Of a DNA stretch of 53,000 nucleotides, positions 32,100 to 52,023 are shown one piece after another. Positions within the stretch are counted from its first letter, which is position 1, and every line of letters starts with the position of its first letter. The stretch is from an uncultured Methanosarcinales archaeon (lineage in GTDB: Archaea; Nanobdellota; Nanobdellia; Woesearchaeales; GW2011-AR9). The DNA lies in NCBI GenBank assembly GCA_964344755.1, contig CAYFOH010000003.1:1-53000 (forward strand), read 5' to 3'. The notes below the pieces were generated by a model, which saw only the letters and a list, made by a program, of their open reading frames with translations, was not told the origin of the DNA and did not search any database. A program made the position numbers and the translations under genes.

Positions 32100-32390
32100 A
32101 TGACATCTCGGGAAAATGAATTGAAGAACATTCGACCAAAATTAGTTAAAATTCTTAAAAAAAACGGAATAAAAAAAGCAGGTATATTTGGTTCTTTCGC
32201 TAGAGGGGAACAAAGAAAGAGAAGTGATGTTGATATCCTTATAGATTCAAATGCAAGTTTGCTTAAGTTGGTTAAATTAGAACAAGAACTAGCAAAGGCT
32301 TTGAATAAAAAAATTGATCTGTTAACATACGAAGGCCTACATCCTTTGCTTAAGGAAAAAATTCTGAATGAGGAAATAAGAATTCTATGA
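32100..32390 (+). CDS. mntA: MNT-type nucleotidyltransferase antitoxin (MntA-like)
   Basis: GIFGSFARGEQRKRSDVDILI (GSxxRG...DxD minimal nucleotidyltransferase motif). 96 aa, 4-nt overlap with the downstream HEPN gene. Confidence 0.85.
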   Translation: MTSRENELKNIRPKLVKILKKNGIKKAGIFGSFARGEQRKRSDVDILIDSNASLLKLVKLEQELAKALNKKIDLLTYEGLHPLLKEKILNEEIRIL

Positions 32391-36565: not shown

Positions 36566-37618
36566 TTATCTGTCCTTTCCATAATGTAAAGAAAGTGGCT
36601 GATCGTGGTCAGGATGTTGGTGAGCGTCCCAAGAAAACATTTCTCCGTTCTTAACTCTTTGCCACTTTTCTAAGTCTTCCTTGACCATCATTTTAACTAA
36701 ATTTCTAAAAGTTATTTTAGGTTGCCATCCCAAAACATATCTTGCTTTAGTTGGATTTCCAACTAAAATATCTACTTCTGAAGGTCTCATAAATCTGGGA
36801 TCAGAAACTACATAATCTTCATAATTTAACCCAACTTCTGAGAAAGCAGTACTAGCAAATTCCTTCACAGAATGAGTTTCCCCTGTAGCAATAACGTAAT
36901 CGTCTGCTTTTTCTTGTTGCAACATTAACCACATAGCCTCGACATAATCTGGCGCGTAGCCCCAATCCCTTTTTGCATCTAAATTTCCTAAAGCTAACTT
37001 GTCTTGCATACCTAATTTTATTCTAGCTACAGCATTAGTTATTTTTCTTGTAACAAATTCCAAACCCCTTAAAGGAGATTCGTGATTAAACAAAATTCCG
37101 CTACAAGCAAAAATCTTATGAGCTTCTCGATAATTTACTGTTATCCAGTGCCCATATACCTTAGCTGCAGCGTATGGGCTACGTGGATAAAAAGGGGTTT
37201 TCTCTGTTTGGGGGATTTCTTTAACCAAACCATACATCTCACTAGAAGACGCCTGATAAAACTTAGTCTTTGGAGAAAGCATTTGTAGAGTATTAATAAT
37301 TCTAGTTACACCAATTCCAGTTATTTGTGCAGCACCTATTGGTTGATCAAAAGACGCACCAACAAAACTTTGAGCTGCTAAATTATAAAACTCGTCAGGT
37401 TGTGTAGTCTGAATCAAATGGATCATAGAACTTTGGTCCAATAAATCAAAAGAAACTAACTGAACTTTATCCATTATTCCTAAATGTTGTAGTCTCCAAA
37501 AGTTAGGGGTACTTAATCTTCTGTAAGTTCCAAAAACTTTGTAACCTTTTTCTAAAAGAAGTTTTGCTAGGTAGGCTCCGTCTTGTCCAGTAACCCCTGT
37601 TATCACCGCTGTTTTCAT
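36566..37618 (-). CDS. gmd: GDP-mannose 4,6-dehydratase
   Basis: AVITGVTGQDGAYLAKLLLEKGY, QASSSEMYG, SPYAAAKVY, ILFNHESPLRG and NLDAKRDWGYAPDYVEAMW. Confidence 0.92.
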   Translation of the reverse strand: MKTAVITGVTGQDGAYLAKLLLEKGYKVFGTYRRLSTPNFWRLQHLGIMDKVQLVSFDLLDQSSMIHLIQTTQPDEFYNLAAQSFVGASFDQPIGAAQITGIGVTRIINTLQMLSPKTKFYQASSSEMYGLVKEIPQTEKTPFYPRSPYAAAKVYGHWITVNYREAHKIFACSGILFNHESPLRGLEFVTRKITNAVARIKLGMQDKLALGNLDAKRDWGYAPDYVEAMWLMLQQEKADDYVIATGETHSVKEFASTAFSEVGLNYEDYVVSDPRFMRPSEVDILVGNPTKARYVLGWQPKITFRNLVKMMVKEDLEKWQRVKNGEMFSWDAHQHPDHDQPLSLHYGKDR

Positions 37619-40324: not shown

Positions 40325-40858
40325 ATGCCTCTAAAAATAAAGAATCTTGAGGAAGAAGATCTTGAAGGATTAGTAGAAGTTATATCTACTACTTTCCCCC
40401 AAGATTTTGATTATGGAGAAGGTTTTTCAGAAGAAGCTTGCTACAAATTCTTTGAAAGAAGTTTACAAGACCCTAACGAAAAAGTTTATACAGCTATTTT
40501 AAATAATAAGACTGTTGGATTTGTTTATTACATAAATAAACCACCTACTAATGGAACAATACTTTTAGAAATGATGGGTGTAAGAAAAAATTACCGAAGA
40601 CAAGGCATTGGAAAAAGACTGTTAAATTTCTCAGATGAAAAAGTTGTAGAAGATTTTAAAAAAAAAGGAATAAATAATATAGCCACCATCCACCTTACTA
40701 CCAGTGAGGATAATTTGGCTGCACAAAGTCTTTATCTTCAGTGTGATTATAAAAAAGAAGGTCGAATTAAAGAACTGGTTGGAAAAGGAAACACTGAAAT
40801 TGTTATGGTAAAGAAGGTTTCTGATACTGCTTATAGAAAAGATCTCTGGATCTCTTGA
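40325..40858 (+). CDS. GNAT-family N-acetyltransferase
   Basis: Motif A MGVRKNYRRQGIGKRLL. 177 aa. The 3' end overlaps the convergent aminotransferase by 28 nt. Confidence 0.75.
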   Translation: MPLKIKNLEEEDLEGLVEVISTTFPQDFDYGEGFSEEACYKFFERSLQDPNEKVYTAILNNKTVGFVYYINKPPTNGTILLEMMGVRKNYRRQGIGKRLLNFSDEKVVEDFKKKGINNIATIHLTTSEDNLAAQSLYLQCDYKKEGRIKELVGKGNTEIVMVKKVSDTAYRKDLWIS

Positions 40859-41955
40859 ATTTGTCTAACAACATACCTTATCTGTTCTTCTGTTAAATGT
40901 GAAGAAGAAGGTAAATATAATCCTTTTTCAGCCAATTCGTCGGCTACAGGATAACTTCCAGAACAATCAGGATAGTTATCTCCTCCTTTAAGATAAGCCG
41001 GCTGTTTGTGCATGCCGTAAAAGAAAGTTCTGGTATCCACGCCTCTTTGTAACAACTCTTCTCTCAATTGAGACATAGAAAGACCAAATTCTTTCTCGAC
41101 CAACAAACTGTACATCCAATAAACATTTTTGGCCCAAAGTTTTTCTACTGGTAACGTTAAGCCAGGTACCTCTTTTAATAAACTAGTGTATAACTGAGCA
41201 TTTTTTCTTCTATTATCAACAAAACTTTCAATCTGTTCTAATTGCGCCAAGCCCAAAGCAGCTTGTAAGTTGGTTAAACGATAATTGAAACCTATTTCTT
41301 GATGTAAAAATCGAGGTTTACCAAAAAAATGGTTTCTTAACTTTCTTGCTCTTTCAGCAACTTGTTCATTGTTAGTTACAACCATGCCGCCCTCGCCTGT
41401 TGTAATTATTTTGTTAGCATAAAAACTGAAACAGGCTATATCTCCTAAAGATCCAACCTTGCGTCCGTTATATTCTGCCCCATGAGCTTCTGCTGCGTCT
41501 TCTAGAATCAATAAATTATGTTTGTCAGCAATTTCTTTGACTTTGTCCATATCAACGGGATGGCCATAAATGTGCACAACCATAATGGCTTTAGTTTTGG
41601 AAGTTATTTTTTCTTCTATCTTAGAAATATCCATATTCCAAGTTTCTCTCTCAGAATCGATTAAAACCGGTTTTGCACCAGAATAAATAATAGCGTTACA
41701 AGAACCAGCCATGGTAAAAGTTGGCATAATTACTTCATCACCTTTACCTATTCCTAAAGCTTCAATCGCTAAATGTAAAGCTACTGTGCCATTAGCACAA
41801 CTAATGCCATGCTTAACATTACAATAGTCAGCAAATTTTTCTTCAAAATCTTGAATAAATTGACCAGCTGAAGAAATCCATCCAGACTTAACAGCTTCTG
41901 TAACATAAGCTAGTTCGTTTCCCTTTAAAGTGGGCTCACATACTGGTATTTTCAT
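40831..41955 (-). CDS. DegT-family sugar 4-aminotransferase (perosamine synthetase / LegC / ArnB-like subgroup)
   Basis: IPVCEPTLKGNELAYVTEAVKSGWISS, ANGTVALHLA, LEDAAEAHGA, CFSFYANKIITTGEGG and IGFNYRLTNLQAALGLAQLE. Confidence 0.88.
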   Translation of the reverse strand: MKIPVCEPTLKGNELAYVTEAVKSGWISSAGQFIQDFEEKFADYCNVKHGISCANGTVALHLAIEALGIGKGDEVIMPTFTMAGSCNAIIYSGAKPVLIDSERETWNMDISKIEEKITSKTKAIMVVHIYGHPVDMDKVKEIADKHNLLILEDAAEAHGAEYNGRKVGSLGDIACFSFYANKIITTGEGGMVVTNNEQVAERARKLRNHFFGKPRFLHQEIGFNYRLTNLQAALGLAQLEQIESFVDNRRKNAQLYTSLLKEVPGLTLPVEKLWAKNVYWMYSLLVEKEFGLSMSQLREELLQRGVDTRTFFYGMHKQPAYLKGGDNYPDCSGSYPVADELAEKGLYLPSSSHLTEEQIRYVVRQIQEIQRSFL

Positions 41956-42388
41956 TGAAAAACCTCTTCTCTTTCTCTTTACCCCGATAAGGGCCCTGTT
42001 TTAGTTCAACTAATTTAGAATCTTCTAGAAACTCGAAGCCATGAGCACAATTTAGAACAATTGAATCGCCTGTGTTTATTATTACAGAATCTATTAACTG
42101 ATCATTTTCTCTCTCATCAAATAAATTGATTTTAACTTTACCTGAAACAACATAAAAAAATTCTTGCACAGGAAAATCTTTTAGCTCAGGGAAAGGAAGA
42201 TGAGCGTGGGCCGTACAAGTACTATCTTTTTTTCTATTATGAATACCCATTTGGAAAGGAAAATAGTCAGGAGTGGCAAAAAGCATCTCTTCATTTAACT
42301 CAGAAACAGTTTTGGCCCTAACAATTATGCAAAGAATTTTGTCATTGTAAACTTTTTTTTCAACATTATCCATCATAACAAAAAACAC
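41936..42388 (-). CDS. Cupin-fold protein (possible sugar ketoisomerase/epimerase, FdtA/WxcM-like HAH motif)
   Basis: 150 aa. TAHAHLPF plus a beta-rich FFYVVSGKVKINLFDE cupin core. Translationally overlapped with the aminotransferase. The specific activity is not assignable. Confidence 0.4.
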   Translation of the reverse strand: MFFVMMDNVEKKVYNDKILCIIVRAKTVSELNEEMLFATPDYFPFQMGIHNRKKDSTCTAHAHLPFPELKDFPVQEFFYVVSGKVKINLFDERENDQLIDSVIINTGDSIVLNCAHGFEFLEDSKLVELKQGPYRGKEKEKRFFNENTSM

Positions 42389-42407
42389 ATTAAACTCTAT
42401 AAAAAGA

Positions 42408-44102
42408 TTATGCTACTGTTTCCTTCAAAACCATTCTAAAAACCAACAAAATAGTGCCTAAAGTTAACAAAATGTCTAACCATAAGACCAATAATCCCAC
42501 ATAATGTAAAAATCCCCGTGAATAATAATCTAAGGAAAACTGAGGATATTTCCAACCCACGGAATAACCCCAAAAGTTGTGGGTTTGGTCGATTAAAGGT
42601 AGAACAGTTTTTGGTAAAGACAGTTCACCATAATAGACTCTAAAATTATGAGTGGCTTGAACTTCAGCTATTTTGGTTGTTCTTTCTTTAAAGAAGTTGC
42701 TGACTTCTTCACTAGCCTGAAAAATTCTTTGAAAATCTTCTGGTTTCCAGCCACAATTTGTTCCAGGTCCGCATTCTAAATAATAAATGGGCACATCTAT
42801 TCTTGAAGCTGTTTGCTGATTTTCAAGTAAATTAAAAAAGTCAAAGGCCTGGATATAATGCTTATCATGAAAAACCCAAGCATGTATTCCGTTATAAATG
42901 CGAGGATCAATAATTACTAACCCTTCGTCAGCGATATTCTCTTTCACAAAGTCTCTTAAAACTAAAGTAATAGATTCATCTCGAGACTCTACAATCTCTT
43001 GTAAAGAAAAGAAACTTAAGAAAAAAGATGTGGCTAAAAGTAGCAATATTACTTGCTTAAACTTAATTTTTTGGGAAAGTATTTTACTAAATCTAAGTAA
43101 AGGATAACCTGCAAAAATGCTTAAGATAGCAGGAACAAGCAAATAATGGGGAGAACTGTTGACTTTTCCTCCGACATAAAGAAGAAGTACTAAAATTGAG
43201 AGCCAAAGTAAAGCGAAGATTGTCTTGTTTTTCTTAAACAAGAAAATACCCCCTACTAAACCAAAGATTGAAAGAATCACGTCTTTAGTTAACATGAAAG
43301 TGAAAATATGGGAAACTACACCTATTAAGCGGCTGGTTTCCCAATGTTGACCACTTCCACCCACAGGATAATTACCAATCCCTAAAACAGAGGCAAAATA
43401 ATAGTCCGTAACACCTTTTTCTTGGTAAGATAAAAAGTTGTAAATTAAAACAGGAGAAACTATTAGTAAAGCTACAATTATACTAACAATTAATGAAGTT
43501 AACAGGTTTTTATTAATGCGTTTAGTTGATAGTAATTTTTTTTGCTTAAGGTAAATCAAAAAAATAAGAAGGAAGGGTAAAACTAAGGTTAAAATTAACG
43601 GTTTAGCTAAACTTCCTAAAGCCAAAAAGAGTGAGGTAAAAATCAAGAAGTAATGTTTGCCTTTTAAAAATTTTATAAAAAACAAAATGCTTAATAAAGC
43701 AAAAAAGAAAGCTAACATGTCCATTTCATAATTGAAAGTGATAGCAAAGCTTGATACAGCAAAGAGAAAAGCTGATAATAAAGAAGCTTTTTTATTTTTA
43801 AATATTTCTTGTGATATCAAAAATATTACTAAACAAGCTAATGAGCCAAAAACTATGGAAACTAATCTCACTGAAATAGCATTAACGCCACCTAGTAGTT
43901 TATAGCCCAAATCAGTTAAATAGAAAAACAAAGGACCTTGTTCATTTGTGCTTAAAGCACCAGAAGAAATAATATTATAAGGGATAACAGAATAAACCAT
44001 TTCATCTGTTGAAACACCTGTATGATGAGCAGCTATTATTCTTAAAACTAGAGCTAATAAAAAAATTAAGATCAGATAAAGAGAAGACTTAGTTAATTTC
44101 AT
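42408..44102 (-). CDS. GT-C fold membrane glycosyltransferase (ArnT/PMT, GT39/GT83-like)
   Basis: 564 aa with more than 10 TM segments. Acidic pair in the first predicted outside loop (HHTGVSTDEMVYS). A large C-terminal soluble domain is followed by a terminal TM. Confidence 0.7.
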   Translation of the reverse strand: MKLTKSSLYLILIFLLALVLRIIAAHHTGVSTDEMVYSVIPYNIISSGALSTNEQGPLFFYLTDLGYKLLGGVNAISVRLVSIVFGSLACLVIFLISQEIFKNKKASLLSAFLFAVSSFAITFNYEMDMLAFFFALLSILFFIKFLKGKHYFLIFTSLFLALGSLAKPLILTLVLPFLLIFLIYLKQKKLLSTKRINKNLLTSLIVSIIVALLIVSPVLIYNFLSYQEKGVTDYYFASVLGIGNYPVGGSGQHWETSRLIGVVSHIFTFMLTKDVILSIFGLVGGIFLFKKNKTIFALLWLSILVLLLYVGGKVNSSPHYLLVPAILSIFAGYPLLRFSKILSQKIKFKQVILLLLATSFFLSFFSLQEIVESRDESITLVLRDFVKENIADEGLVIIDPRIYNGIHAWVFHDKHYIQAFDFFNLLENQQTASRIDVPIYYLECGPGTNCGWKPEDFQRIFQASEEVSNFFKERTTKIAEVQATHNFRVYYGELSLPKTVLPLIDQTHNFWGYSVGWKYPQFSLDYYSRGFLHYVGLLVLWLDILLTLGTILLVFRMVLKETVA

Positions 44103-44354
44103 TTAAGAAAAATGGCACGTGTAACCACTTTCAGTAGCTACAGTTTCACCTCCAGCACCTAAACAACAGTTATTTACTTCTCTTAATTTGCTACAATAAT
44201 CTTGTCCCCCTTTTTCACACTTCCATTGAATACAACGATCAAAACCTTCTTTACCCCTATTCTTTAGCGATATAAAAGAGAAAACCACCATCAGAACCAA
44301 AAGAGCGTAAAGTAGGTAAAGTAGTCCTTTTTGCCATTTAGTTAGTTCTTTCAT
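44103..44354 (-). CDS. Small membrane-anchored Cys-rich protein (83 aa)
   Basis: N-terminal TM (LLYLLYALLVLMVVFSFISL) followed by a 45-aa tail with 7 Cys (RCIQWKCEKGGQDYCSKLREVNNCCLGAGGETVATESGYTCHFS). It abuts or overlaps the flanking GT-C genes (4-nt overlap upstream, 0-nt gap downstream). Confidence 0.45.
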   Translation of the reverse strand: MKELTKWQKGLLYLLYALLVLMVVFSFISLKNRGKEGFDRCIQWKCEKGGQDYCSKLREVNNCCLGAGGETVATESGYTCHFS

Positions 44355-46279
44355 TTTACTTTCAATAAAAATATCCTTTGTTCAATGTGTTGAGTTATCT
44401 CAAAGTCTTGAGAGCTGGCTAGTGCAGGGTAGAGTTCATTTAAATAAGCTTGAACTTCTTCTTCAGCAAAATGTTTTCTTAGCTGTCTAAGATCCATCGA
44501 TGGATTAATTAACAAATATTCATAATTGTTTTCTTTTAAAAAGGAATAGATTTCCTCAGGACTTTTACCTACTATCTCTTGTCTAAAATCATAAATCTCC
44601 TTACACCAGATACAATCAAATTTGCCAAAACCGGTGATAAGCTTAGGCCTGGGAGCCAACATAAATATTTTGGTGTTATCTGGTAGACTCTCTAATAAAG
44701 ATCCATATTCAAAAGCCTCTTGGGGGTTAGAAAAAGCGCTTGAAGTTGGCCACACAGTAGTATTTAGAGCAAATTTTTGTGAAGTTGAAGTTAGGTAGAT
44801 TCCTAATATTAGTAAGACTATAATAACTAATTTAGCTCCTTTAATTTTACGGAAAAAGTTTAGTAAAAAATAAGCTCCTTCTGCTGCTAACAAAGAAACA
44901 GGGATAGCTAAAAGCATCCAGACTCTAAATGGACCTCTAGCAACGGATACTGGAAATGTTTGTCCGTTTACACCCCAGAAAGTAAAGATTAACCAAAATA
45001 AAGTAATAGCCAACCAAGTATTCTCTTTTTTAACAAGTTTAGATTTGTAATGCCATAAAACATAAACAAGACCTACCAAAACCAGTAAAGAGACTATCAC
45101 ACCAATGCCAATGGGATTATTGATCAGGTTCTCTTTTTGAGCAAAGAAAAAATCTTCAAATGAATAAGCCCTAGATGCAGAACCTCCAGAAGAAGTTAAC
45201 CTAGCTAAAATACCAGAGATTTTACTAAACAAAGAACTTGTACTTGAAGACACGGCCGCATCTGTTGTGGTTTGGCCCACCTGGTAATAGTTGGTTAAAA
45301 GACCTTTTAAAGAATATCTTCTGACTAAATCACCCCACCATAACAAAGACAAAAATCCTCCTGCAAAAAAGGCAGTAAAACCTTTTTTGAAAATCTTTTT
45401 CTGGGTGATTGAATATACTATTAAGTAAATTAGGATTAAAGTGCTAATTTTTAGTGGTTGAGAGAGGTTTTGCGTGAACCAAACAGCAGCCACCATTATG
45501 GCTGATAAATAAACCCATTTTTTATCTGTTGGAATTTTTTGAAAAGCATAAAATAAAGGGAAAACCAAAGTGATAATAAGAGCATGGGCCCAAATAAAGT
45601 GACTAAGGTAAGAAGGAAGAGATGCTAAAACAAAAGTAGCAAACAAAGCTTTATTTCTATTACCTACAAACAACTTGGCAAAAAAGTAAAAGAAAAATAT
45701 GCTCAACGAAATTATCAGAGCGTTAAAGAACTTCATAGTCCAAGTTAAGTCTGGAGACGTTTGATGCAAAACGCCTAAAAGGATATTATATGCTGGGGGG
45801 TAAGGGTCAACATATGAAAGGAAACGATCAAAATCACTATGTTGAGGATCATAAGCTGTTTTTTCTATGCTTACATATTTAATTCCTACTGAATGGCCCC
45901 AAGGATCTTCATTTTCTAGGTAAGGATAAGAAAAAGCACCCTGTAAGTAAATGTAGAAAGATACTAAAACAATTACTAAAACAAGCAGAGTATAAAGGGA
46001 TTCTTTGGATAATTTAAGAGAAGGTTTAGGGAATTTTCTATGTTTTATTAGGTGGTAAATAGGCAAGATCAAGCTTAAAACTAAAAAGATCCTCCAATCC
46101 AAAGGTATATGGAAAAGGTTAAGTAAAATAGCTAAAAAGGCAAAGGCACCTAATCCAAAAGCTACATTCATAATTTGCCTTTCCCAAAAATTCTTAGACT
46201 TCTTAAGGAAATAAGTTGCCGAGAAACCTAGGCCCCAGGTGTAAATGAAAAACAAAAGAATTGTAATATAACTAACCAT
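44351..46279 (-). CDS. Large polytopic membrane protein, GT-C-like glycosyltransferase candidate
   Basis: 642 aa, about 13 TM segments, acidic loop motif YLENEDPWGH after TM4 and a C-terminal soluble domain. No WWDYG-type STT3/AglB motif was seen. Confidence 0.5.
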   Translation of the reverse strand: MVSYITILLFFIYTWGLGFSATYFLKKSKNFWERQIMNVAFGLGAFAFLAILLNLFHIPLDWRIFLVLSLILPIYHLIKHRKFPKPSLKLSKESLYTLLVLVIVLVSFYIYLQGAFSYPYLENEDPWGHSVGIKYVSIEKTAYDPQHSDFDRFLSYVDPYPPAYNILLGVLHQTSPDLTWTMKFFNALIISLSIFFFYFFAKLFVGNRNKALFATFVLASLPSYLSHFIWAHALIITLVFPLFYAFQKIPTDKKWVYLSAIMVAAVWFTQNLSQPLKISTLILIYLIVYSITQKKIFKKGFTAFFAGGFLSLLWWGDLVRRYSLKGLLTNYYQVGQTTTDAAVSSSTSSLFSKISGILARLTSSGGSASRAYSFEDFFFAQKENLINNPIGIGVIVSLLVLVGLVYVLWHYKSKLVKKENTWLAITLFWLIFTFWGVNGQTFPVSVARGPFRVWMLLAIPVSLLAAEGAYFLLNFFRKIKGAKLVIIVLLILGIYLTSTSQKFALNTTVWPTSSAFSNPQEAFEYGSLLESLPDNTKIFMLAPRPKLITGFGKFDCIWCKEIYDFRQEIVGKSPEEIYSFLKENNYEYLLINPSMDLRQLRKHFAEEEVQAYLNELYPALASSQDFEITQHIEQRIFLLKVK

Positions 46280-46318
46280 CCATTATTTTTTAAAACAAAG
46301 GTATTTAAGTTTTGTGGA

Positions 46319-47713
46319 CTACCCGACCTCATAAAGATAAACACTTAACTCTCGGCCATGTTTTTCTTTAACAACAGTGAAGTGCTTGTCTAAGAATTTC
46401 TTATACTCTTTCCCATAATTACCGTCACGTGAAGAAATTAACCAAAATCTGTCCTCCGACTCCAGTTCAGATAACAAAAGTTCCTTATCAAAATATTTTC
46501 TGGCATGGTTCATCTCCCAAGTGAGTTCTAATTTGCGATAAGAATTAGGATAATAATATTCAAACAAGTTAATATTACTTTCAGCTTTAGTAAAAAGTAA
46601 TAAAGTATTAGGAGAATTCTCTTCAATAAAATCAATAGTTTCTTCCCAAGGAGCTTTAGTAGTTTGCTCATAATAAACATAAAGAGTAAAAGCGTTAAAC
46701 ATTAGGATCATAAAGATAATCAGAGCTTGTACTTTCTTGGACTTTAAAGATAGAATGGCGTAAGCCAAAAGTAAGTAAAAGAACGGAACAACAAAAAAAG
46801 AGTGCCTAATTAAAGAGAAAGATCTCAAAGTTTTGTCCAGTAAAACTAAGTGAACTACAAGAATTATCAATGTTACTAAAAGAGTCAAAAATTTCCAAGG
46901 AACTTTCTTAAAGTTTACTTTTCTTAAAAAGCAATAAGCTAAAACCAAACCACAAGCCAGAAAAGTGATTGGTAACAAATAAAACCCGATACCAAGATTG
47001 GCCAAAAAAGGAGGTATGCCTCTGGCAATGAAAGCCTGCTGTAAAGCTGGTTGACGTAACAATATTTGTGTATGAAGAATCGTAAGGCCAGGGATAAAAG
47101 CTAAGATACTAATTAAAGAAGCCATCAAAAACTTCCACAACCATTTTCTTTTCCAAAACAAGATGGCTAAGAAATGGAACATCACAACAAAAAAAGTCAT
47201 GTAGCTTGTGTACAGTGCAACAATTAGAGAGATAGCATAAGCAAACCAATAATTACTCTTCTTGTTAGAAACCGATAAAACCAAGAAATAAGTAGCTAAC
47301 AAAACCAAAAAGCCAAACATGCTGTAAGGACGGGCTTCTTGGGCATACAACACTTGTAACATGGTTGTAGCTAAGAACAGGGCAGCTAACAGCCCTACTT
47401 TTTTGTTGAAAAGTTTTGCACCTAACAAGAAAATAAAGATTATTGCTAACAAGTCAAAAACTATCGAAAGCGACCTTAAAGCTTGTTCTGAAGTTCCAAA
47501 AAGGTTTGTCCAATACTTTAAAAAATTAAAATAAAAAGTTGGCGTTAACTCTCTGTCAGCTATAGATGTCTCTAAAGAATCAGCTTTTAAATGATCTAAA
47601 GTGATAATTTCATCAGTCCAAAGATTTTCTGTATTTAGATCGTGAACTCTTAAAAAAGAACCTAAAAGAACAATAATAATCAATAGTAAATAGATACTTT
47701 TTATTTTAGACAT
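46319..47713 (-). CDS. GT-C fold membrane glycosyltransferase (ArnT/PMT_2-like)
   Basis: 464 aa, about 11 TM segments and a first-loop motif ENLWTDEIITLDH (acidic DE pair typical for GT39/GT83). Confidence 0.7.
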   Translation of the reverse strand: MSKIKSIYLLLIIIVLLGSFLRVHDLNTENLWTDEIITLDHLKADSLETSIADRELTPTFYFNFLKYWTNLFGTSEQALRSLSIVFDLLAIIFIFLLGAKLFNKKVGLLAALFLATTMLQVLYAQEARPYSMFGFLVLLATYFLVLSVSNKKSNYWFAYAISLIVALYTSYMTFFVVMFHFLAILFWKRKWLWKFLMASLISILAFIPGLTILHTQILLRQPALQQAFIARGIPPFLANLGIGFYLLPITFLACGLVLAYCFLRKVNFKKVPWKFLTLLVTLIILVVHLVLLDKTLRSFSLIRHSFFVVPFFYLLLAYAILSLKSKKVQALIIFMILMFNAFTLYVYYEQTTKAPWEETIDFIEENSPNTLLLFTKAESNINLFEYYYPNSYRKLELTWEMNHARKYFDKELLLSELESEDRFWLISSRDGNYGKEYKKFLDKHFTVVKEKHGRELSVYLYEVG

Positions 47714-48533
47714 TTCTCAAAAAATCTCTCACAGGCAATAATTTAACACCTCTAGACTTCAATTGAATTAGATCTTCCTTCAAAGGCATCCTTGTAAAGG
47801 TAGCTTTTTGATGGTCTTGCTTAATTGAAGAAAATTGTTTGTTAGTATATTCCTCTATGAATTCATTAAGCATGTCACCAAAAGAAGCTGCTAAATCGTA
47901 ATGAAGTTTGTAAACAGAGGTCTTGGAATCATAATAAAATTTTCTTTGAAAGATGATGTCTCCAGTATCTAATCCTGGCTCCATAAAGTGAATAGTTACA
48001 CCGTACTGTGGGTCTTGATTTAACAGATACCAAAAATATTGGGCAGCACCCCTATATTCTGGTAAATAAGAACCGTGAGCATTGATTAACTTATTACCTA
48101 ACGTTTCAAAAACGTTTTTCTTTAAAATCTGGGAAACTAGGCATAAAATATAGTCTGGATTCAATTTTTTGACTTTTTGTAAAAATTCTGGATCACTAAG
48201 ATCAGTTGTTTCAATGATCGGAATTTGGTACTGTTTAGCTAAGCCACGAATGGTTTTAGCTTGACCCGTTTGGTAAAGTTTAGTTTTAAGCAATTTGTGA
48301 GAAGTCAACAACAAATTATAAAGTTTAGATTCAACCAACTTGTAAGAAAAAAAACCTAAAGATGATTTTTTAATTAATTTATAAGCCACTTTCAGTTGGT
48401 CAGTGAACGCTTCCCCTTTGAGTTGACTAGATAAAACAATTGCCGAAATTTGGTCGTGATGTTTGAGTAAAACTTTCCTGGTTGCTACAACAGAAGCCAT
48501 AGTATTTTGTGTAAAAAATACGAGCTTGGCCAT
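47706..48533 (-). CDS. Formyltransferase (Fmt/ArnA N-domain/WbkC-like sugar N-formyltransferase candidate)
   Basis: Catalytic N/H/D signature LINAHGSYLPEYRG ... EPGLDTGDII. It carries a ~50-aa insertion in the N-terminal subdomain. 8-nt overlap with the downstream GT-C gene. Confidence 0.8.
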   Translation of the reverse strand: MAKLVFFTQNTMASVVATRKVLLKHHDQISAIVLSSQLKGEAFTDQLKVAYKLIKKSSLGFFSYKLVESKLYNLLLTSHKLLKTKLYQTGQAKTIRGLAKQYQIPIIETTDLSDPEFLQKVKKLNPDYILCLVSQILKKNVFETLGNKLINAHGSYLPEYRGAAQYFWYLLNQDPQYGVTIHFMEPGLDTGDIIFQRKFYYDSKTSVYKLHYDLAASFGDMLNEFIEEYTNKQFSSIKQDHQKATFTRMPLKEDLIQLKSRGVKLLPVRDFLRNV

Positions 48534-48534
48534 T

Positions 48535-49245
48535 TTAATATTTTAACCTAATCTCAAAGATCCTTTTCATATAAATCAAACCAAACTTAAATAAACCAAA
48601 AAGAGTTGCAGCCGTTTTAGATTGACCTGCCCTTCTATCCGTAAAAGAATAACCTACTTCCTTTATTCTATGTTTTTTACCAACCCGATACAAAAAGTCG
48701 ATACAATATTCACCATAACCTGAATCAGACAAACGATAATTCTCTAAAACATCTTTACGAGCTGCAATAAAACCGCTATCATAATCAAGGACTTTAAAAT
48801 TAAGGACAATATTAGCTAAAAGGTTAATGAAGCGACTTGAAGCCACTCTCAGAAAAGGCCTAGCATCTTTGCCACCTTTAGCATACCTTGAACCAACACA
48901 AACACCATATCGATCTAAGTAAGGAATCATTTTAGGAACTAACTCTGGGGGCATTGACTGATCAGCATCCATCCAAACTACATATTTGCCTTTGGCTAAA
49001 TCAATTCCTTTTTGTATGGCTCCAACCAATTTTCGTTGATTAATTCTTCTAACAACTTTCACATCAGGAGAATTAAGTAAAGAAGCTAATTCCCAAGTCT
49101 TATCTGGGCTGTCGTCGTCAACTACAATTATTTCTAATTGATAATCTTTAAGGGACTCTTGAGTCCTTTTTATTAAAGGCACGATATTTTCCGCCTCATT
49201 ATAAGTCGGGAAAACAATAGAAACATCAATTTCTTTTTTGTCCAT
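48535..49245 (-). CDS. GT2 polyprenyl-phosphate glycosyltransferase (Dpm1/ArnC-like)
   Basis: SIVFPTYNEAENI, IIVVDDDSPDKT and WMDADQSMPP. First gene of the minus-strand operon. Confidence 0.8.
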   Translation of the reverse strand: MDKKEIDVSIVFPTYNEAENIVPLIKRTQESLKDYQLEIIVVDDDSPDKTWELASLLNSPDVKVVRRINQRKLVGAIQKGIDLAKGKYVVWMDADQSMPPELVPKMIPYLDRYGVCVGSRYAKGGKDARPFLRVASSRFINLLANIVLNFKVLDYDSGFIAARKDVLENYRLSDSGYGEYCIDFLYRVGKKHRIKEVGYSFTDRRAGQSKTAATLFGLFKFGLIYMKRIFEIRLKY

Positions 49246-49267: not shown

Positions 49268-49276
49268 TTTTAAATA
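49268..49276 (-). promoter_or_regulatory. Putative TATA box (TATTTAAAA on minus strand) ~23-31 nt upstream of start 49245 (Arn-like operon)
   Basis: Spacer 49246-49342. This is the only sizeable non-coding stretch upstream of the eight-gene minus-strand string. Confidence 0.4.
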
Positions 49277-50002: not shown

Positions 50003-51220
50003 ATGGATCCTGAAACACAAAGGTTAATCTCTTTAGAATTAAAAAGACAACAAAACACACTGCAAATGATTCCCTCAGAGAATTATGCTAGTAAAGCTGT
50101 TTTAGCTGCTTGTGGTTCTGTTTTAAACAACAAGTATAGTGAAGGTTATCCCAAAAAGAGATATTATCAGGGCAATGAACACGCCGACGAGATTGAATTG
50201 TTAGCTATCGAAAGAGCAAAAAAATTATTTGGAGCTGAACACGTTAATGTACAATCTTATTCTGGTAGTCCAGCCAACATGGCGATTTATCATGCCTTGC
50301 TTAAACCCGGGGAAAAGATTATGGGTATGAGGTTGGACATGGGAGGCCATCTAACACACGGCCACCGAGTTAATTTTTCCGCAAAATATTTTCAGGCAGT
50401 GCAATATGGAGTAGACCCAGTAACTGGTTTAATCAATATGGAAGAAGTAAGAAAGATTGCTCTTAAAGAAAAACCAAAAATTATTGTTTCTGGATCAACA
50501 GCTTACCCTAGACAACTAGATTTTAAAAAATTTCATGAAATTGCTAAAGAAGTCGGAGCTTACTCTATGGCAGATATTTCTCATATCGCAGGATTAATTG
50601 TGGGAGGTGTACACCAAAGTCCTTTCCCATTTACTGATGTCGTAATGACGACTACCCATAAAACTCTTCGAGGACCAAGGGGGGCTATGATCCTTTGTAA
50701 AGAAGAGATAAAGAAAAAAATTGACAAAGCAGTTTTTCCAGGTTTACAAGGAGGGCCTCATCAACATAGTATTGCTGGTAAAGCTGTAGCTTTTCATGAA
50801 GCTTTACAACCAGAATTTCAAGATTATGCACAACAAGTCGTTAAGAATGCAAATGCATTAGCAAGTTCTCTGAAAAAGGAAGGCATGACTTTAGTAACTG
50901 GTGGAACAGATAACCATCTCATTTTAATTGATTTAAGAGAACAAGGCATTGGTTTGGGTAAGCAAGGAGCAGAAGCTTTAGAAAGAGCAGGAATTGTTAC
51001 CAATTGTAACACTGTTCCTTATGATCCTTCCACTCCTTTCAATCCATCTGGTATCAGAATTGGCACACCTGCTTTAACTACAAGAGGGATGAAAGAACCA
51101 GAGATGATTGAAATAGGAATAAAGATAGCTAGTGTGTTAAAAGAGATGGAGAATTTAGAACTACAAGCAAAAGTAAAAGAAGAAGTGATTCAAATGTGTG
51201 AAAAATTTCCTATATATTGA
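50003..51220 (+). CDS. glyA: Serine hydroxymethyltransferase
   Basis: SENYAS, YSEGYP, GGHLTHGH and TTTHKTLRGPRG (PLP lysine motif). Confidence 0.92.
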   Translation: MDPETQRLISLELKRQQNTLQMIPSENYASKAVLAACGSVLNNKYSEGYPKKRYYQGNEHADEIELLAIERAKKLFGAEHVNVQSYSGSPANMAIYHALLKPGEKIMGMRLDMGGHLTHGHRVNFSAKYFQAVQYGVDPVTGLINMEEVRKIALKEKPKIIVSGSTAYPRQLDFKKFHEIAKEVGAYSMADISHIAGLIVGGVHQSPFPFTDVVMTTTHKTLRGPRGAMILCKEEIKKKIDKAVFPGLQGGPHQHSIAGKAVAFHEALQPEFQDYAQQVVKNANALASSLKKEGMTLVTGGTDNHLILIDLREQGIGLGKQGAEALERAGIVTNCNTVPYDPSTPFNPSGIRIGTPALTTRGMKEPEMIEIGIKIASVLKEMENLELQAKVKEEVIQMCEKFPIY

Positions 51221-52023
51221 AGATGACAACAATTCTTGATGGTAAAAAATTAGCTAAAGAAATTTTAGAAGGATTAAAAGGGTCTCAAGGTAAGTTAACA
51301 ATTATTATGTGTGGGGAAAGACCTGATTCTGTGCTTTATACAAACATTAAGAAAAAAAAAGGAGAAGAGATAGGTTTAGGAGTGGATATTGTTAAATTTG
51401 ACGAAGATGTTGGTGAAACGGAGTTGATTAGTAGAATCAAAAATCTGGAATGTGATGGAATTATTGTACAATTGCCTTTACCTAAGCATTTAGATAGTAA
51501 AAAAATTCTTGCTAGTATTCCTCCTGAGAAAGATGTTGATGGTTTAACTAAAACAAGTTTAGGGAAGGTCCTGTTAGGAGACGAATCTTTTGCATCAGCC
51601 ACTCCAAAAGGTGTTGTGAGGTTATTGGAAGAATACAAGATTGAAGTTAAAGGAAAAGAAGTTGTTATTATCAACCACAGCAATATTGTTGGTAAACCTT
51701 TAGCTATGATGTTAGTAAATCGTGGAGCGACAGTGACGATCTGTCATGAATTTACTAAAGATCTGTCACAACACACACTAAGAGCAGATATCTTGGTCAG
51801 CGGAGTAGGGAAGCCCAATTTTATTAGCAAGGAGATGGTTAAAGAAGGTGTTATTATTGTTGATGTAGGTATCTCTAAGGTTAATGAGAAAATAGTAGGA
51901 GATGTTGCTGAGAATGTTAAAGAAAAAGCTTCTTTCTTTACTCCTGTTCCTGGTGGAGTGGGCCCAATGACTGTGGCGATGTTACTTGAAAATGTGGTTA
52001 ATGTAGCAAACAAAAATTTATAA
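51217..52023 (+). CDS. folD: Bifunctional 5,10-methylene-THF dehydrogenase / methenyl-THF cyclohydrolase
   Basis: ILDGKKLAKEI, GIIVQLPLPKH, NIVGKPLAMML and TPVPGGVGPMTVAMLL. The probable true start is the ATG at 51223. Confidence 0.92.
   Translation: MKMTTILDGKKLAKEILEGLKGSQGKLTIIMCGERPDSVLYTNIKKKKGEEIGLGVDIVKFDEDVGETELISRIKNLECDGIIVQLPLPKHLDSKKILASIPPEKDVDGLTKTSLGKVLLGDESFASATPKGVVRLLEEYKIEVKGKEVVIINHSNIVGKPLAMMLVNRGATVTICHEFTKDLSQHTLRADILVSGVGKPNFISKEMVKEGVIIVDVGISKVNEKIVGDVAENVKEKASFFTPVPGGVGPMTVAMLLENVVNVANKNL

What the first reader, a model, noticed from the sequence alone, without database searches (positions are those of the whole stretch)
40831..49245. Arn-like operon in a probable archaeon: polyprenyl-P GT2 + N-formyltransferase + three consecutive GT-C proteins + Cys-rich mini-protein + cupin + aminotransferase
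Seen: eight co-directional genes have overlapping or near-abutting ends behind a single TATA-like element at 49268-49276. The formyltransferase has the N/H/D signature (INAHGSYLPEYRG...GLDTGDI). Each of the three polytopic proteins has an acidic pair in an early predicted outside loop (TDE, ENED, TDE). Established: aminotransferase + formyltransferase + ArnC + ArnT is the logic of bacterial lipid A Ara4N modification. Gmd + perosamine-synthase-like aminotransferase + formyltransferase gives GDP-N-formylperosamine in Brucella. Cupin ketoisomerase + aminotransferase + formyltransferase gives dTDP-3-formamido-3,6-dideoxyhexoses. Inference: a lipid-carrier-linked N-formyl amino sugar may be delivered outside the membrane by up to three paralogous GT-Cs. 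The acceptors would be protein or lipid in an organism without lipid A. No ArnD-type deformylase or ArnE/F flippase is seen. The exact sugar cannot be decided from sequence.
Basis: partly seen in the sequence, partly recalled or inferred. Interest (0 to 1): 0.75.

Follow-up and report, generated by a model that had tools for sequence, protein, structure and literature searches.

The report
Archaeal lipid-linked N-formyl sugar glycosylation cluster
A tiny DPANN archaeon (Woesearchaeota group) carries a conserved gene cluster that most likely makes an N-formylated amino-deoxy sugar, loads it on a membrane lipid carrier and attaches it to cell-surface molecules; the logic is known from bacteria, but this set of parts has not been described in archaea.

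Summary
Eight co-directional minus-strand genes (40831-49245) encode a soluble dolichyl-phosphate-mannose-synthase-like GT2, a single-domain formyltransferase with the Asn/His/Asp triad, three GT-C-fold membrane proteins, a conserved 83-aa Cys-rich membrane protein, a metal-type cupin and a DegT aminotransferase.

The order recurs in eight other genome-collection loci from Woesearchaeota/Nanoarchaeia, so it is not chance.

The "Arn-like" reading is right as logic but wrong in detail:
- The aminotransferase is closest to GDP-perosamine synthase, not ArnB.
- The GT2 is closest to archaeal Dol-P-Man synthase, not ArnC.
- A true Gmd lies 3.2 kb away, and a Gmd homologue sits in the cluster in three relatives (incomplete in one).
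- SHMT and FolD, which supply formyl-tetrahydrofolate, sit next door.

The best-supported product is therefore a dolichyl-phosphate-linked 4-formamido-4,6-dideoxyhexose of the perosamine type.

The middle 642-aa protein belongs to an undescribed GT-C family with more than 770 relatives and no Pfam model. It always sits next to the Cys-rich mini-protein. The third GT-C resembles Agl23, a reported Dol-P-hexose flippase, which could explain the "missing" flippase.

In relatives without this formyltransferase, an acetyltransferase or a different formyltransferase fusion accompanies the same machinery, or no N-acyltransferase is seen.

Verdict: a new variant of the known three-component lipid-linked glycosylation scheme.

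The parts
49268..49276 (-). TATA-like element TATTTAAAA, 22 nt upstream of the GT2 start codon; candidate archaeal promoter
   Evidence: Read. A similar A(A/C)(C/T)TATTTAAA lies upstream of the GT2 gene in L006/L020, L018 and L016. Such motifs are common in this AT-rich window, so function is inferred, not shown.
48535..49245 (-). GT2: soluble polyprenyl/dolichyl-phosphate glycosyltransferase (236 aa, no predicted TM helix), DPMS-like, with DAD and RRAGQSK motifs
   Evidence: PF00535, 116 bits. Best solved relative is P. furiosus Dol-P-Man synthase 5mlz (134 bits, residues 6-219 to 23-240); ArnC scores 50 bits. Sub-threshold hits to AglJ, ArnC and PpgS. No TM segment by hydropathy.
47706..48533 (-). 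Single-domain N-formyltransferase (275 aa) with the Asn151/His153/Asp189 triad; predicted sugar N-formyltransferase using N10-formyl-tetrahydrofolate
   Evidence: PF00551 only, no PF02911. TIGR00460 fmt scores 96 bits, below the 201.5 cut-off; ArnA scores 79 bits. PDB hits: FMT N-domain 62 bits, ArnA N-domain 53, PseJ, QdtF, WlaRD, WbkC. The triad is invariant. The clade is restricted to Woesearchaeota/Nanoarchaeia: 39 word-index hits, 14 representatives at E<=1e-30, 9 loci in the genome collection.
46319..47713 (-). GTC1: GT-C glycosyltransferase of the PMT_2 type (464 aa, about 10 TM helices), invariant D34-E35 in the first outside loop
   Evidence: PF13231, 51 bits against a 26.1 cut-off. 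TM profile. Invariant W32, D34, E35. Homologous to GTC3 by hhalign, 99.3%.
46302..46309 (-). Second TATA-like element CTTAAATA in the 39-nt GTC1|GTC2 gap, also 22 nt before the next ATG; possible internal promoter
   Evidence: Sequence of the gap.
44351..46279 (-). GTC2: member of an undescribed GT-C-fold family (642 aa) with a 3-helix N-terminal extension, invariant E122/D125/W127/H129 in the long outside loop, and a C-terminal outside domain with a CxWC pair
   Evidence: No Pfam or NCBIfam hit even at E<=1. At least 772 homologues; those that carry a name are hypothetical proteins of Woese-/Nanoarchaeota. AF2 pLDDT 86.7, pTM 0.89. Foldseek top 20 are all GT-C: STT3 1e-8, DPY19, AglB, AftA, PglB, ArnT, with TM-scores 0.4-0.5 for the first 16. 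Invariant columns.
44103..44354 (-). 83-aa membrane-anchored Cys-rich protein (1 TM helix, 6 invariant Cys, NNCCLGAGG motif); start overlaps the GTC2 stop (ATGA); likely partner or subunit of GTC2
   Evidence: Conserved in 10 loci and always next to GTC2, including loci without this FT. TM segment 10-28. No family hit.
42408..44102 (-). GTC3: GT-C of the PMT/PMT_2 type (564 aa), invariant D33-E34; resembles Agl23 (Dol-P-hexose flippase-associated); C-terminal outside domain with a Cys pair
   Evidence: PF13231 62.7 bits and PF02366 39 bits, both above threshold. TIGR03663 Agl23 65 bits over residues 9-364, below the 126 cut-off; ArnT 24 bits. Invariants. C-terminal similarity to GTC2.
41936..42388 (-). 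Metal-type cupin (146-150 aa), invariant H61, H63, Q75, E76, H116; always immediately upstream of the aminotransferase; proposed epimerase or isomerase acting on the 4-keto sugar
   Evidence: Weak Cupin_2 hit; WbuC-family 26 bits, below the 42 cut-off. No PDB sequence hit. At least 563 homologues. AF2 pLDDT 91.4. Foldseek returns generic metal cupins, including the CapF cupin domain, lyxose isomerase and PMI; no FdtA/QdtA or characterised RmlC-type epimerase among the 50 best matches listed. Invariants.
40831..41955 (-). DegT-family PLP sugar aminotransferase (374 aa) with the catalytic Lys motif FSFYANKIITTGEGG; closest to GDP-perosamine synthase
   Evidence: PF01041, 430 bits. LegC-family 360 bits, below the 420 cut-off; PseC 300; ArnB 239. 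Caulobacter perosamine synthase 3bn1 aligns end to end at 337 bits; QdtB 254; ArnB 184-195.
50003..52023 (+). SHMT (50003-51220) and FolD (51217-52023): folate one-carbon module able to supply N10-formyl-tetrahydrofolate, divergently placed next to the operon
   Evidence: PF00464 516 bits; PF02882 and PF00763. FolD and/or SHMT are conserved upstream of GT2-FT in L004/L015, L006/L020, L013, L017, L018 and L019, in some loci with 5-FTHF cyclo-ligase and FolC.
52029..52919 (+). GT2TM: second, membrane-anchored polyprenyl-phosphate hexose synthase-like GT2 (296 aa, 2 C-terminal TM helices)
   Evidence: PF00535. AglJ 158 bits, Dol-P hexose transferase 129 bits, PpgS 87 bits, all sub-threshold. TM segments. 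Present at 65-74% identity beside the cluster in nearly all FT loci, including the distant L021.
36566..37618 (-). GDP-mannose 4,6-dehydratase (Gmd); probable source of the 4-keto-6-deoxy precursor
   Evidence: TIGR01472 gmd equivalog, 433.7 bits against a 415 cut-off. A homologue sits directly after DegT in L017 (80% identity), next to the cupin in L021 (56%), and as an incomplete ORF at the end of the cluster in L006 (46% over its first 138 residues). L094 has a 349-aa SDR with Epimerase/GDP_Man_Dehyd Pfam hits in the matching position, not tested for Gmd identity.

Best explanation
This is a conserved Woesearchaeal (DPANN archaeal) gene cluster for extracytoplasmic glycosylation with a lipid-carrier-linked N-formyl amino-deoxy sugar. 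It is an archaeal, dolichol-type version of the bacterial 'three-component' (Gtr/Arn-type) scheme.

Proposed steps:
1. Gmd converts GDP-mannose to GDP-4-keto-6-deoxymannose. The enzyme identity is shown at family-equivalog level; its link to the operon is inferred from synteny.
2. The cupin may epimerise or isomerise this keto sugar (inferred, weak).
3. The perosamine-synthase-like DegT enzyme aminates it to a GDP-4-amino-4,6-dideoxyhexose (family shown; substrate inferred).
4. The single-domain formyltransferase N-formylates the amine with N10-formyl-tetrahydrofolate supplied by the adjacent SHMT/FolD genes (catalytic triad shown; substrate inferred).
5. The soluble DPMS-like GT2, always encoded next to the formyltransferase, transfers the formamido sugar to dolichyl phosphate (inferred from homology and adjacency).
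6. The lipid-linked sugar is flipped, possibly by the Agl23-like GTC3 (inferred).
7. GT-C enzymes transfer the sugar to surface acceptors, either glycoprotein glycans or lipids. The candidates are GTC1 and the new-family GTC2 with its Cys-rich partner (fold shown; acceptor unknown).

The second, membrane-anchored GT2 next to FolD probably supplies a Dol-P-hexose for another of the GT-Cs.

The N-acyl group behaves as a swappable module. Related clusters built on the same GTC2/mini-protein/PMT_2/GT2/DegT core carry a hexapeptide-repeat acetyltransferase or a 2-epimerase-formyltransferase fusion in the region, and one carries no N-acyltransferase at all.
For: - Gene set and families.
- GT-C fold of GTC2. 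GTC1/GTC3 homology.
- Synteny GT2-FT-GTC1-GTC2-mini-GTC3-cupin-DegT holds in L004/L015, L006, L013, L016 and L017, with GT2-FT-GTC1 seen in the shorter L018-L020; 9 genome-collection loci, all Woese-/Nanoarchaeia.
- GT2 and FT are adjacent even in distant relatives with 34-35% FT identity, where the order is otherwise rearranged: L008, L021, L094.
- The aminotransferase aligns end to end with GDP-perosamine synthase at 337 bits.
- The GT2 is closest to the GDP-mannose-using P. furiosus DPMS, 134 bits.
- The window Gmd passes the equivalog cut-off. A Gmd homologue lies inside or at the edge of the cluster in L017, L021 and, as an incomplete ORF, L006. L008 has a LegB-like 4,6-dehydratase instead; LegB is also a GDP-sugar enzyme (my knowledge).
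- FolD and/or SHMT, in some loci with 5-FTHF cyclo-ligase and FolC, sit directly upstream in most loci of the close FT clade.
- Variants without this FT: L011 and L012 carry a hexapeptide-repeat acetyltransferase, L010 a 2-epimerase-FT fusion, and L093 no N-acyltransferase.
- GTC3 resembles Agl23. Purified Agl23 translocated lipid-linked glycan in liposomes (PMC11182771).
Against: - No biochemical data exist for any of these proteins.
- The FT shows no specific affinity for the GDP-perosamine formyltransferase WbkC (37 bits). Its best solved relatives are the FMT and ArnA N-domains.
- A Gmd-to-perosamine route needs no cupin, yet the cupin is strictly conserved, so the sugar is probably not plain perosamine.
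- The aminotransferase also scores 360 bits on the LegC model.
- In the window, Gmd is 3.2 kb away behind four plus-strand genes.
- L016 lacks the folate genes within 9 kb, and the distant FT loci lack them too.
- GTC1 and GTC3 gave no hit to solved GT-C structures by sequence or profile, so their fold rests on Pfam only.
- The Agl23 hit is below the family cut-off.
- The acceptor is unknown.
Confidence: 0.6

Rival explanations
1. A true Arn homologue. The sugar is UDP-4-formamido-4-deoxy-L-arabinose made from UDP-glucuronate, carried on a polyprenyl phosphate and transferred by ArnT-like enzymes.
For: The gene logic matches (aminotransferase, formyltransferase, GT2, GT-C). The FT scores 79 bits on the ArnA model and the GT2 58 bits on ArnC. 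The window holds a nucleotide-sugar dehydrogenase (20297-21667) followed by an SDR (19312-20304) with weak hits to UDP-4-keto-pentose synthase.
Against: All Arn model scores are far below their cut-offs: ArnA 79 of 777, ArnC 58 of 529, ArnB 239 of 631, ArnT 24 of 567. The aminotransferase and the GT2 are each much closer to GDP-sugar enzymes. No decarboxylase lies in or beside the operon in any relative; Gmd or a LegB-like dehydratase is there instead. The dehydrogenase is closest to UDP-ManNAc dehydrogenase and lies next to 2-epimerases. No ArnD or ArnE/F was found.
Confidence: 0.04
2. The aminotransferase and formyltransferase make a 4-formamido bacillosamine-type intermediate for N-formyl-legionaminic acid, as in the Halorubrum sp. 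PV6 N-glycan. The neighbouring GT2 and GT-C genes are then a separate Dol-P-hexose system that merely shares the glycan island.
For: The aminotransferase scores 360 bits on the LegC-family model. L008 has a LegB-like dehydratase upstream of cupin-DegT-GT2-FT. The window encodes a DegT/CMP-NulO-synthetase/NeuB fusion and two 2-epimerase-family genes. L010 has a 2-epimerase-formyltransferase fusion. N-formyl-legionaminic acid and a candidate formyltransferase are documented in an archaeon (PMC6137143).
Against: GT2-FT adjacency is kept in every FT locus, even where everything else is rearranged. The NeuB genes are 21 kb away in the window and absent from the relatives' clusters. Gmd, not LegB, accompanies the cluster in L017, L021 and L006. 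The L010 FT domain is only 28% identical over 78 residues, so it belongs to a different lineage.
Confidence: 0.12
3. A dTDP-3-formamido-3,6-dideoxyhexose route. The cupin is a 3,4-ketoisomerase, DegT a C-3 aminotransferase, and the FT is QdtF/FdtF-like.
For: Cupin, DegT and FT occur together. QdtB is the third-best solved aminotransferase group at 254 bits. QdtF and WlaRD appear among the FT hits. A 3,4-isomerisation of the GDP-keto sugar (a mycosamine-type 3-amino sugar) cannot be excluded.
Against: The cupin has no FdtA/QdtA Pfam match and no sequence hit to solved isomerases. No FdtA/QdtA structure is among the 50 best fold matches listed, which are mostly metal cupins. It keeps a His/His/Glu/His metal-type signature. 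No RmlA/RmlB pair sits beside the cluster. The GT2 is closest to a GDP-sugar enzyme.
Confidence: 0.1
4. The eight genes are unrelated neighbours in a large glycan-synthesis island. Co-direction and tight spacing reflect genome compaction, not a shared pathway.
For: The whole 53-kb window is packed with glycan genes. Internal TATA-like elements exist. In L004/L015 the block is split by an opposite-strand gene.
Against: The same order is kept across several species-level genomes at 40-74% identity. Sub-modules (GT2-FT, cupin-DegT, GTC2-mini) stay paired in rearranged distant loci.
Confidence: 0.05

Closest known systems
Bacterial Arn pathway (ArnB-ArnC-ArnA-ArnD-ArnT-ArnE/F; lipid A aminoarabinose modification)
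   Same: Both combine a DegT aminotransferase, an N10-formyl-THF formyltransferase with the Asn/His/Asp triad, a GT2 that loads the formylated sugar onto a polyprenyl phosphate, and a GT-C transferase of the PMT_2/ArnT superfamily. The GT2 and formyltransferase genes are adjacent, as arnC and arnA are.
   Different: There is no UDP-GlcA decarboxylase domain, no ArnD deformylase and no ArnE/F. All Arn equivalog models score far below cut-off. The sugar nucleotide is probably GDP-linked and hexose-derived, and the carrier is presumably dolichyl phosphate. There is no lipid A acceptor. The cluster has three GT-C-fold proteins plus a Cys-rich mini-protein.
Three-component polyprenyl-phosphate-monosaccharide glycosylation systems (GtrA/GtrB/GtrC; CsbB/GtcA/YfhO; mycobacterial PpgS/Rv3632/Rv3779)
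   Same: A cytoplasmic GT2 makes a Pren-P-monosaccharide, a flippase moves it, and a GT-C adds it to a pre-made glycoconjugate outside (PMC11127046, PMC8035078). Relatives of the window carry a GT2-GtrA pair in the same cluster.
   Different: The window itself has no GtrA. The sugar is tailored in the cluster by amination and formylation. Several GT-Cs are present, one from an undescribed family. The setting is archaeal.
Haloarchaeal Agl22/Agl23 and AglJ/AglD-AglS Dol-P-hexose steps of N-glycosylation
   Same: Both pair an archaeal Dol-P-hexose synthase (GT2) with a PMT_2-like polytopic protein. GT2TM resembles AglJ and the Dol-P hexose transferase, and GTC3 resembles Agl23. Agl23 is linked to flipping of lipid-linked sugars (PMC11182771).
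   Different: All scores are below the family cut-offs. No formyltransferase, aminotransferase or cupin is known in the haloarchaeal systems. The lineage is DPANN.
GDP-N-formylperosamine synthesis (Gmd-Per-WbkC) of the Brucella O-antigen
   Same: A bona fide Gmd, a perosamine-synthase-like aminotransferase (337 bits, end to end) and a formyltransferase of the same superfamily.
   Different: The FT is not specifically WbkC-like (37 bits). An additional conserved cupin suggests a different stereochemistry. In Brucella the product is polymerised by cytoplasmic GTs, whereas here it appears to go to a lipid-phosphate carrier for outside transfer.
STT3/AglB/PglB oligosaccharyltransferases and the DPY19 C-mannosyltransferase (structural neighbours of GTC2)
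   Same: GTC2 shares the GT-C_A fold. These are its best Foldseek matches, at E 1e-8 to 2e-5. It has acidic residues in the first long outside loop and a C-terminal outside domain.
   Different: TM-scores are only 0.4-0.5 and sequence identity 10-15%. There is no STT3 Pfam match, and no WWDYG motif at the position it occupies in STT3. GTC2 has a 3-helix N-terminal extension and an obligate 83-aa Cys-rich neighbour.

Membership tests
Arn (Ara4N) pathway | ArnA C-terminal UDP-glucuronate oxidative decarboxylase supplying UDP-4-keto-pentose | tested here: not met
   The FT is 275 aa with only PF00551. No SDR lies in the operon. Relatives carry Gmd or a LegB-like 4,6-dehydratase instead.
Arn (Ara4N) pathway | ArnB, ArnC, ArnA-N and ArnT orthology (NCBIfam equivalog cut-offs) | tested here: not met
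   ArnB 239 of 631, ArnC 58 of 529, ArnA 79 of 777, ArnT 24 of 567 bits. The superfamilies match, but orthology does not.
Arn (Ara4N) pathway | ArnD deformylase and ArnE/F flippase | tested here: not met
   No such Pfam families among the window ORFs scanned or in the gene tables of relatives.
Three-component Pren-P-monosaccharide glycosylation systems | GT2 of the DPMS/GtrB/ArnC type that charges a polyprenyl phosphate | tested here: met
   134 bits to P. furiosus DPMS over the catalytic domain. The DAD and RRAGQSK motifs are read in the sequence. Lipid transfer itself has not been assayed.
Three-component Pren-P-monosaccharide glycosylation systems | Dedicated flippase (GtrA/GtcA family) | tested here: inconclusive
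   No GtrA in the window. GtrA is present after a second GT2 in L004-L006, L093 and L095. The Agl23-like GTC3 is an alternative candidate, with a sub-threshold score of 65 of 126 bits.
Three-component Pren-P-monosaccharide glycosylation systems | GT-C-fold transferase with acidic residues in the first outside loop | tested here: met
   PMT_2 above threshold for GTC1 and GTC3. AF2 plus Foldseek for GTC2. Invariant DE / ExxD.
Methionyl-tRNA formyltransferase (Fmt) | C-terminal tRNA-binding domain (PF02911) and the TIGR00460 cut-off | tested here: not met
   No PF02911. 96 bits against a 201.5 cut-off. The alignment to Fmt ends at chain residue 222 of 314.
N10-formyl-THF-dependent transformylases (PF00551) | Asn-x-His ... 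Asp catalytic triad in the conserved core | tested here: met
   N151, H153 and D189 are invariant in 25 sequences and align to the Fmt motif. PF00551 scores 74 bits against a 26.1 cut-off.
GDP-perosamine / N-formylperosamine pathway | Gmd plus a C-4 aminotransferase of the perosamine synthase type | tested here: inconclusive
   Gmd passes the equivalog cut-off and is syntenic in relatives. The aminotransferase aligns end to end with Caulobacter Per at 337 bits but also scores 360 bits on LegC. Regio- and stereochemistry cannot be tested by sequence.
FdtA/QdtA-type NDP-sugar 3,4-ketoisomerases | Membership of the FdtA cupin family (PF05523) or structural match to it | tested here: not met
   No PF05523 hit at E<=0.01. 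No PDB sequence or profile hit. No FdtA/QdtA structure among the 50 best Foldseek matches listed; the list is mostly metal cupins and includes the CapF cupin domain.
STT3/AglB oligosaccharyltransferases (for GTC2) | STT3 Pfam domain and a WWDYG motif in the C-terminal domain | tested here: not met
   No Pfam hit even at E<=1. The conserved WW(G) is at residues 314-316 inside a long mid-protein helix of the model (residues 298-333), not in the C-terminal domain. Similarity is at the fold level only.

The most novel reading that the evidence does not exclude
GTC2 and its obligate 83-aa Cys-rich partner may form a previously unrecognised two-subunit GT-C glycosyltransferase specific to Woese-/Nanoarchaeota, structurally nearest to oligosaccharyltransferases. 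It would decorate the cell surface of these episymbiotic archaea with lipid-delivered, variably N-acylated (formyl or acetyl) amino-deoxy sugars. In this lineage a dedicated folate one-carbon module would be kept mainly to formylate a surface sugar. That would be the first dolichyl-phosphate-linked N-formyl sugar donor in any organism, and a strain-variable surface determinant, as the nonsense allele of GTC3 in a sister population hints.
Probability: 0.2. Interest if true: 0.75.

Novelty: new variant of a known kind. Interest (0 to 1): 0.55.

Why it matters
DPANN archaea live attached to other cells, and their surfaces are almost unstudied. This cluster predicts a specific, testable surface chemistry: a formamido-dideoxyhexose delivered from a dolichyl-phosphate donor.

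It also defines a large GT-C family (more than 770 members, no Pfam model) with a conserved small partner protein.

It gives a concrete reason for a reduced-genome archaeon to keep SHMT, FolD and, in relatives, FolC next to glycan genes.

It shows that the 'formylate, then load onto lipid' logic of polymyxin-resistance Arn systems is not confined to bacteria and lipid A. Relatives with this machinery differ in the N-acyltransferase gene they carry: formyl, acetyl or none.

The two literature searches aimed at such a system returned no description of it. The only archaeal N-formyl sugar those searches turned up is N-formyl-legionaminic acid (PMC6137143).

Tried and rejected
1. Sequence and profile searches of GTC1, GTC3 and the cupin against solved structures gave nothing meaningful. 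I therefore relied on Pfam for GTC1 and GTC3, and on AF2 plus Foldseek for GTC2 and the cupin.
2. The cupin fold search did not identify a function. It returned hundreds of generic metal cupins. The CapF cupin domain (a C-3 epimerase, from my knowledge) and the sub-threshold WbuC hit are only hints.
3. Rfam and tRNA scans of the window found nothing that helps with taxonomy.
4. Literature searches for an archaeal formyltransferase/dolichol/perosamine system and for Woesearchaeota glycosylation found no description of this cluster.
5. I considered that the FT might be Fmt, and rejected it (no C-terminal domain, sub-threshold score, archaeal host).
6. I considered GTC2 as a divergent AglB/STT3, and rejected membership (no STT3 domain or motif). 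The fold similarity remains.
7. Cluster-member look-ups of distant FT relatives gave almost no names.
8. The 203-aa divergent membrane protein (49322-49933) was checked as a possible flippase. It has no family hit and, among the loci compared, matches only the same population.
9. The bacterial promoter/terminator scanner was not used, because the host is archaeal.

Full report
**1. What is in the sequence**

The region 40831-49245 holds eight minus-strand ORFs with no credible plus-strand genes among them:
- GT2, 48535-49245.
- Formyltransferase (FT), 47706-48533.
- GTC1, 46319-47713.
- GTC2, 44351-46279.
- An 83-aa protein, 44103-44354.
- GTC3, 42408-44102.
- A cupin, 41936-42388.
- A DegT aminotransferase, 40831-41955.

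The junctions, in order, are a 1-nt gap, an 8-nt overlap, a 39-nt gap, a 4-nt ATGA overlap, direct abutment, a 19-nt gap and a 20-nt overlap.

TATTTAAAA lies at 49276-49268, 22 nt before the first ATG. A near-identical element is found upstream of the orthologous GT2 in L006/L020, L018 and L016. This supports a promoter.

TATA-like strings are frequent in this 34% GC window, however. CTTAAATA at 46309-46302 sits in the GTC1|GTC2 gap with the same 22-nt spacing. A single transcription unit is therefore not demonstrated.

**2. Families**

- **GT2.** It matches PF00535. Its closest solved relative is the P. furiosus dolichyl-phosphate mannose synthase (134 bits over the catalytic domain); ArnC scores 50 bits. 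It has no TM helix.
- **FT.** It has only the PF00551 core. N151, H153 and D189 are invariant. It falls below the Fmt cut-off (96 of 201.5 bits) and lacks the Fmt/ArnA C-terminal subdomain.
- **GTC1 and GTC3.** Both pass the PMT_2 threshold, and GTC3 also passes PMT. They are homologous to each other (hhalign 99.3%).
- **GTC2.** It has no Pfam or NCBIfam hit even at E<=1. An AlphaFold2 model built on 44 sequences is confident (pLDDT 86.7, pTM 0.89). Its 20 best PDB matches are all GT-C enzymes: STT3, DPY19, AglB, AftA, PglB, ArnT and PMTs.
- **Acidic loop residues.** They are invariant in all three GT-C families.
- **The 83-aa protein.** It is a real, conserved protein with one TM helix and six invariant cysteines.
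- **The cupin.** It has a His/His/Glu/His metal-type signature and a confident cupin model. No specific functional match emerged. Hits to the CapF cupin domain and a sub-threshold WbuC match hint at an epimerase acting on a 4-keto sugar. There is no support for an FdtA/QdtA-type ketoisomerase.
- **The aminotransferase.** It keeps the catalytic lysine motif and aligns end to end with Caulobacter GDP-perosamine synthase (337 bits). QdtB scores 254 bits and ArnB 184-195. It also scores 360 bits on the LegC model, below that model's cut-off.

**3. Context in the window**

Immediately upstream and divergent lie a 203-aa membrane protein of unknown function, SHMT, FolD and a second GT2 with two C-terminal TM helices. 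That second GT2 is AglJ/Dol-P-hexose-synthase-like. SHMT plus FolD can make N10-formyl-tetrahydrofolate, the co-substrate of the FT (established biochemistry).

A Gmd that passes the equivalog cut-off lies at 36566-37618. The whole 53-kb window is a glycan-synthesis island. It holds a Wzx-type flippase, GT4s, sulfotransferases, a nonulosonic-acid fusion enzyme, 2-epimerases, a nucleotide-sugar dehydrogenase and more DegT genes.

**4. Relatives**

The window comes from a metagenome, project PRJEB17505. The FT clade is small: 39 hits in the word-indexed search, and 14 representatives at E<=1e-30 in the exhaustive search.

In the species-representative genome collection, only nine loci carry it. 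All are from Woesearchaeota/Nanoarchaeia MAGs, though some are labelled 'uncultured Methanosarcinales' by an automated submission. The next-best hits are bacterial genes at about 30% identity over the catalytic core, which I take to be fmt.

The order GT2-FT-GTC1-GTC2-mini-GTC3-cupin-DegT recurs in L004/L015, L006, L013, L016 and L017 at 40-74% identity. GT2TM, FolD and SHMT are upstream in most of these loci, in some with 5-FTHF cyclo-ligase and FolC.

In L017 a Gmd 80% identical to the window's directly follows DegT. In the distant L021 and its look-alike L094 (L021 FT 34% identical), a compact set is found: an SDR upstream of the cupin (a Gmd homologue at 56% identity in L021; in L094 known only from its Pfam families), GT2TM, cupin, DegT, GT2, FT and one PMT_2 protein. 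L008 has a LegB-like 4,6-dehydratase in the Gmd position.

GTC2 (at least 772 homologues) and the cupin (at least 563) are far more widespread than the FT. In loci without this FT, GTC2, the mini-protein, a PMT_2 protein, a GT2 and a DegT recur. In these loci:
- L011 and L012 carry a hexapeptide-repeat acetyltransferase.
- L010 carries a 2-epimerase-FT fusion.
- L093 carries no acyltransferase, only methyltransferases.

The stable pairs are GT2-FT, cupin-DegT and GTC2-mini. The acyl-transfer step behaves as an exchangeable module.

**5. Mechanism proposed**

1. GDP-mannose is converted to GDP-4-keto-6-deoxymannose by Gmd.
2. The cupin possibly epimerises or isomerises the keto sugar.
3. DegT aminates it to a GDP-amino-dideoxyhexose.
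4. The FT formylates the amine, using N10-formyl-THF from SHMT/FolD.
5. The GT2 transfers the formamido sugar to dolichyl phosphate.
6. The lipid-linked sugar is flipped. GTC3 is a candidate, by its resemblance to Agl23, which translocated lipid-linked glycans in vitro (PMC11182771).
7. GT-C enzymes transfer the sugar to surface acceptors.

Shown here: the gene order, the families, the catalytic motifs, the folds, the synteny and the taxonomic range. Inferred: every substrate, the carrier lipid, the flippase assignment and the acceptor.

**6. Comparison with known systems**

The scheme works like Arn and like the bacterial three-component Gtr-type systems (PMC11127046, PMC8035078), but it is not a member of the Arn pathway. 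Every Arn equivalog model is far below threshold. The decarboxylase, deformylase and ArnE/F are absent. The enzymes' nearest characterised relatives use GDP-sugars.

An N-formyl sugar is not unprecedented in Archaea: 5-N-formyl-legionaminic acid occurs in Halorubrum sp. PV6 (PMC6137143). That gives the main rival reading, in which FT and DegT feed nonulosonic-acid synthesis. I rate this rival at about 0.12, because GT2-FT adjacency and Gmd association are conserved while NeuB genes are not.

**7. Verdict**

Novelty: a new variant of a known kind, containing an undescribed GT-C family with a small Cys-rich partner.

Confidence is about 0.6 in the general mechanism and about 0.45 in a GDP-perosamine-type precursor.

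Noticed in passing
window 42938-42944 (GTC3 codons 387-389) versus L001:7431-7437: A contig of the same population from another sample is 99.98% identical over 12.7 kb, with three differences. Two of them hit GTC3: K387 becomes a stop codon and N389 becomes Y. This truncates GTC3 after its membrane domain. It may be a strain-variable or inactivated allele of a surface-glycosylation gene, or an assembly artefact.
   Followed up: partly
window 44351-46279 (C-terminus, residues ~510-642), 42408-44102 (residues ~400-520), 44103-44354: GTC2 and GTC3 share a related C-terminal outside domain with an invariant Cys pair (GTC2 C556/C559 'CxWC'; GTC3 C444/C450). The neighbouring 83-aa protein has six invariant Cys. 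This suggests disulfide-linked or metal-bridged assembly outside the membrane.
   Followed up: partly
window 98-2398 and 16424-19321: Two unusual fusion proteins: a 766-aa tandem double DegT aminotransferase, and a 965-aa DegT + CMP-nonulosonate synthetase + NeuB triple fusion. Together they point to a nonulosonic-acid (legionaminic/pseudaminic-type) pathway.
   Followed up: no
window 13486-14760 and 29418-30668; L010:18362-19753, L012:13902-15263, L094:13789-15045: Paralogous proteins of 416-424 aa in the window combine a nucleotidyltransferase-like region (NTP_transf_5; found only in the 29418-30668 copy, below Pfam's threshold) with a thymidylate-kinase-like region. Proteins of 418-463 aa with the same weak Pfam matches recur near GTC2 in relatives. 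Their function is unknown.
   Followed up: no
window 32387-32731 (with the 108-aa ORF at 32093-32419): A HepT-like ribonuclease toxin gene sits inside the glycan island. A small opposite-strand ORF overlaps its start and could be the cognate antitoxin.
   Followed up: no
window 35375-36565 and 36566-37618: A DegT-family protein whose best model is the RfbH 3-dehydrase type (252 bits) lies convergent with Gmd, the two stop codons abutting. It could belong to a separate GDP-colitose-like or perosamine branch competing for the same Gmd product.
   Followed up: no
L004:19039-end, L006:17889-20834, L093:9540-14088, L095:10737-14904: After DegT, relatives carry a tail module that the window lacks: a second soluble GT2, GtrA, an NDP-hexose C-methyltransferase (PF08421/PF08484) and an SDR, the last two fused in L095. 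This implies a second, C-methylated lipid-linked sugar in those genomes.
   Followed up: partly
L008:5054-7429: In this distant relative the orthologous DegT aminotransferase is interrupted by an intein (Intein_splicing and related Hint-domain Pfam hits).
   Followed up: no
window 38608-39477; L012:9119-9934: A 289-aa protein with a very weak NUDIX match lies between two HAD phosphatases downstream of the operon. A weak-NUDIX protein of 271 aa also sits directly upstream of GTC2 in L012. It might be a nucleotide-sugar or lipid-pyrophosphate hydrolase.
   Followed up: no
FT family: Beyond the small Woesearchaeal clade, on the order of a hundred single-domain formyltransferases of roughly 250-290 aa among the 150 best representatives listed align at 25-38% identity, many over nearly the full length (one cluster includes a Bdellovibrionales bacterium protein). 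Stand-alone FTs of this size may form a broader, uncharacterised group.
   Followed up: partly
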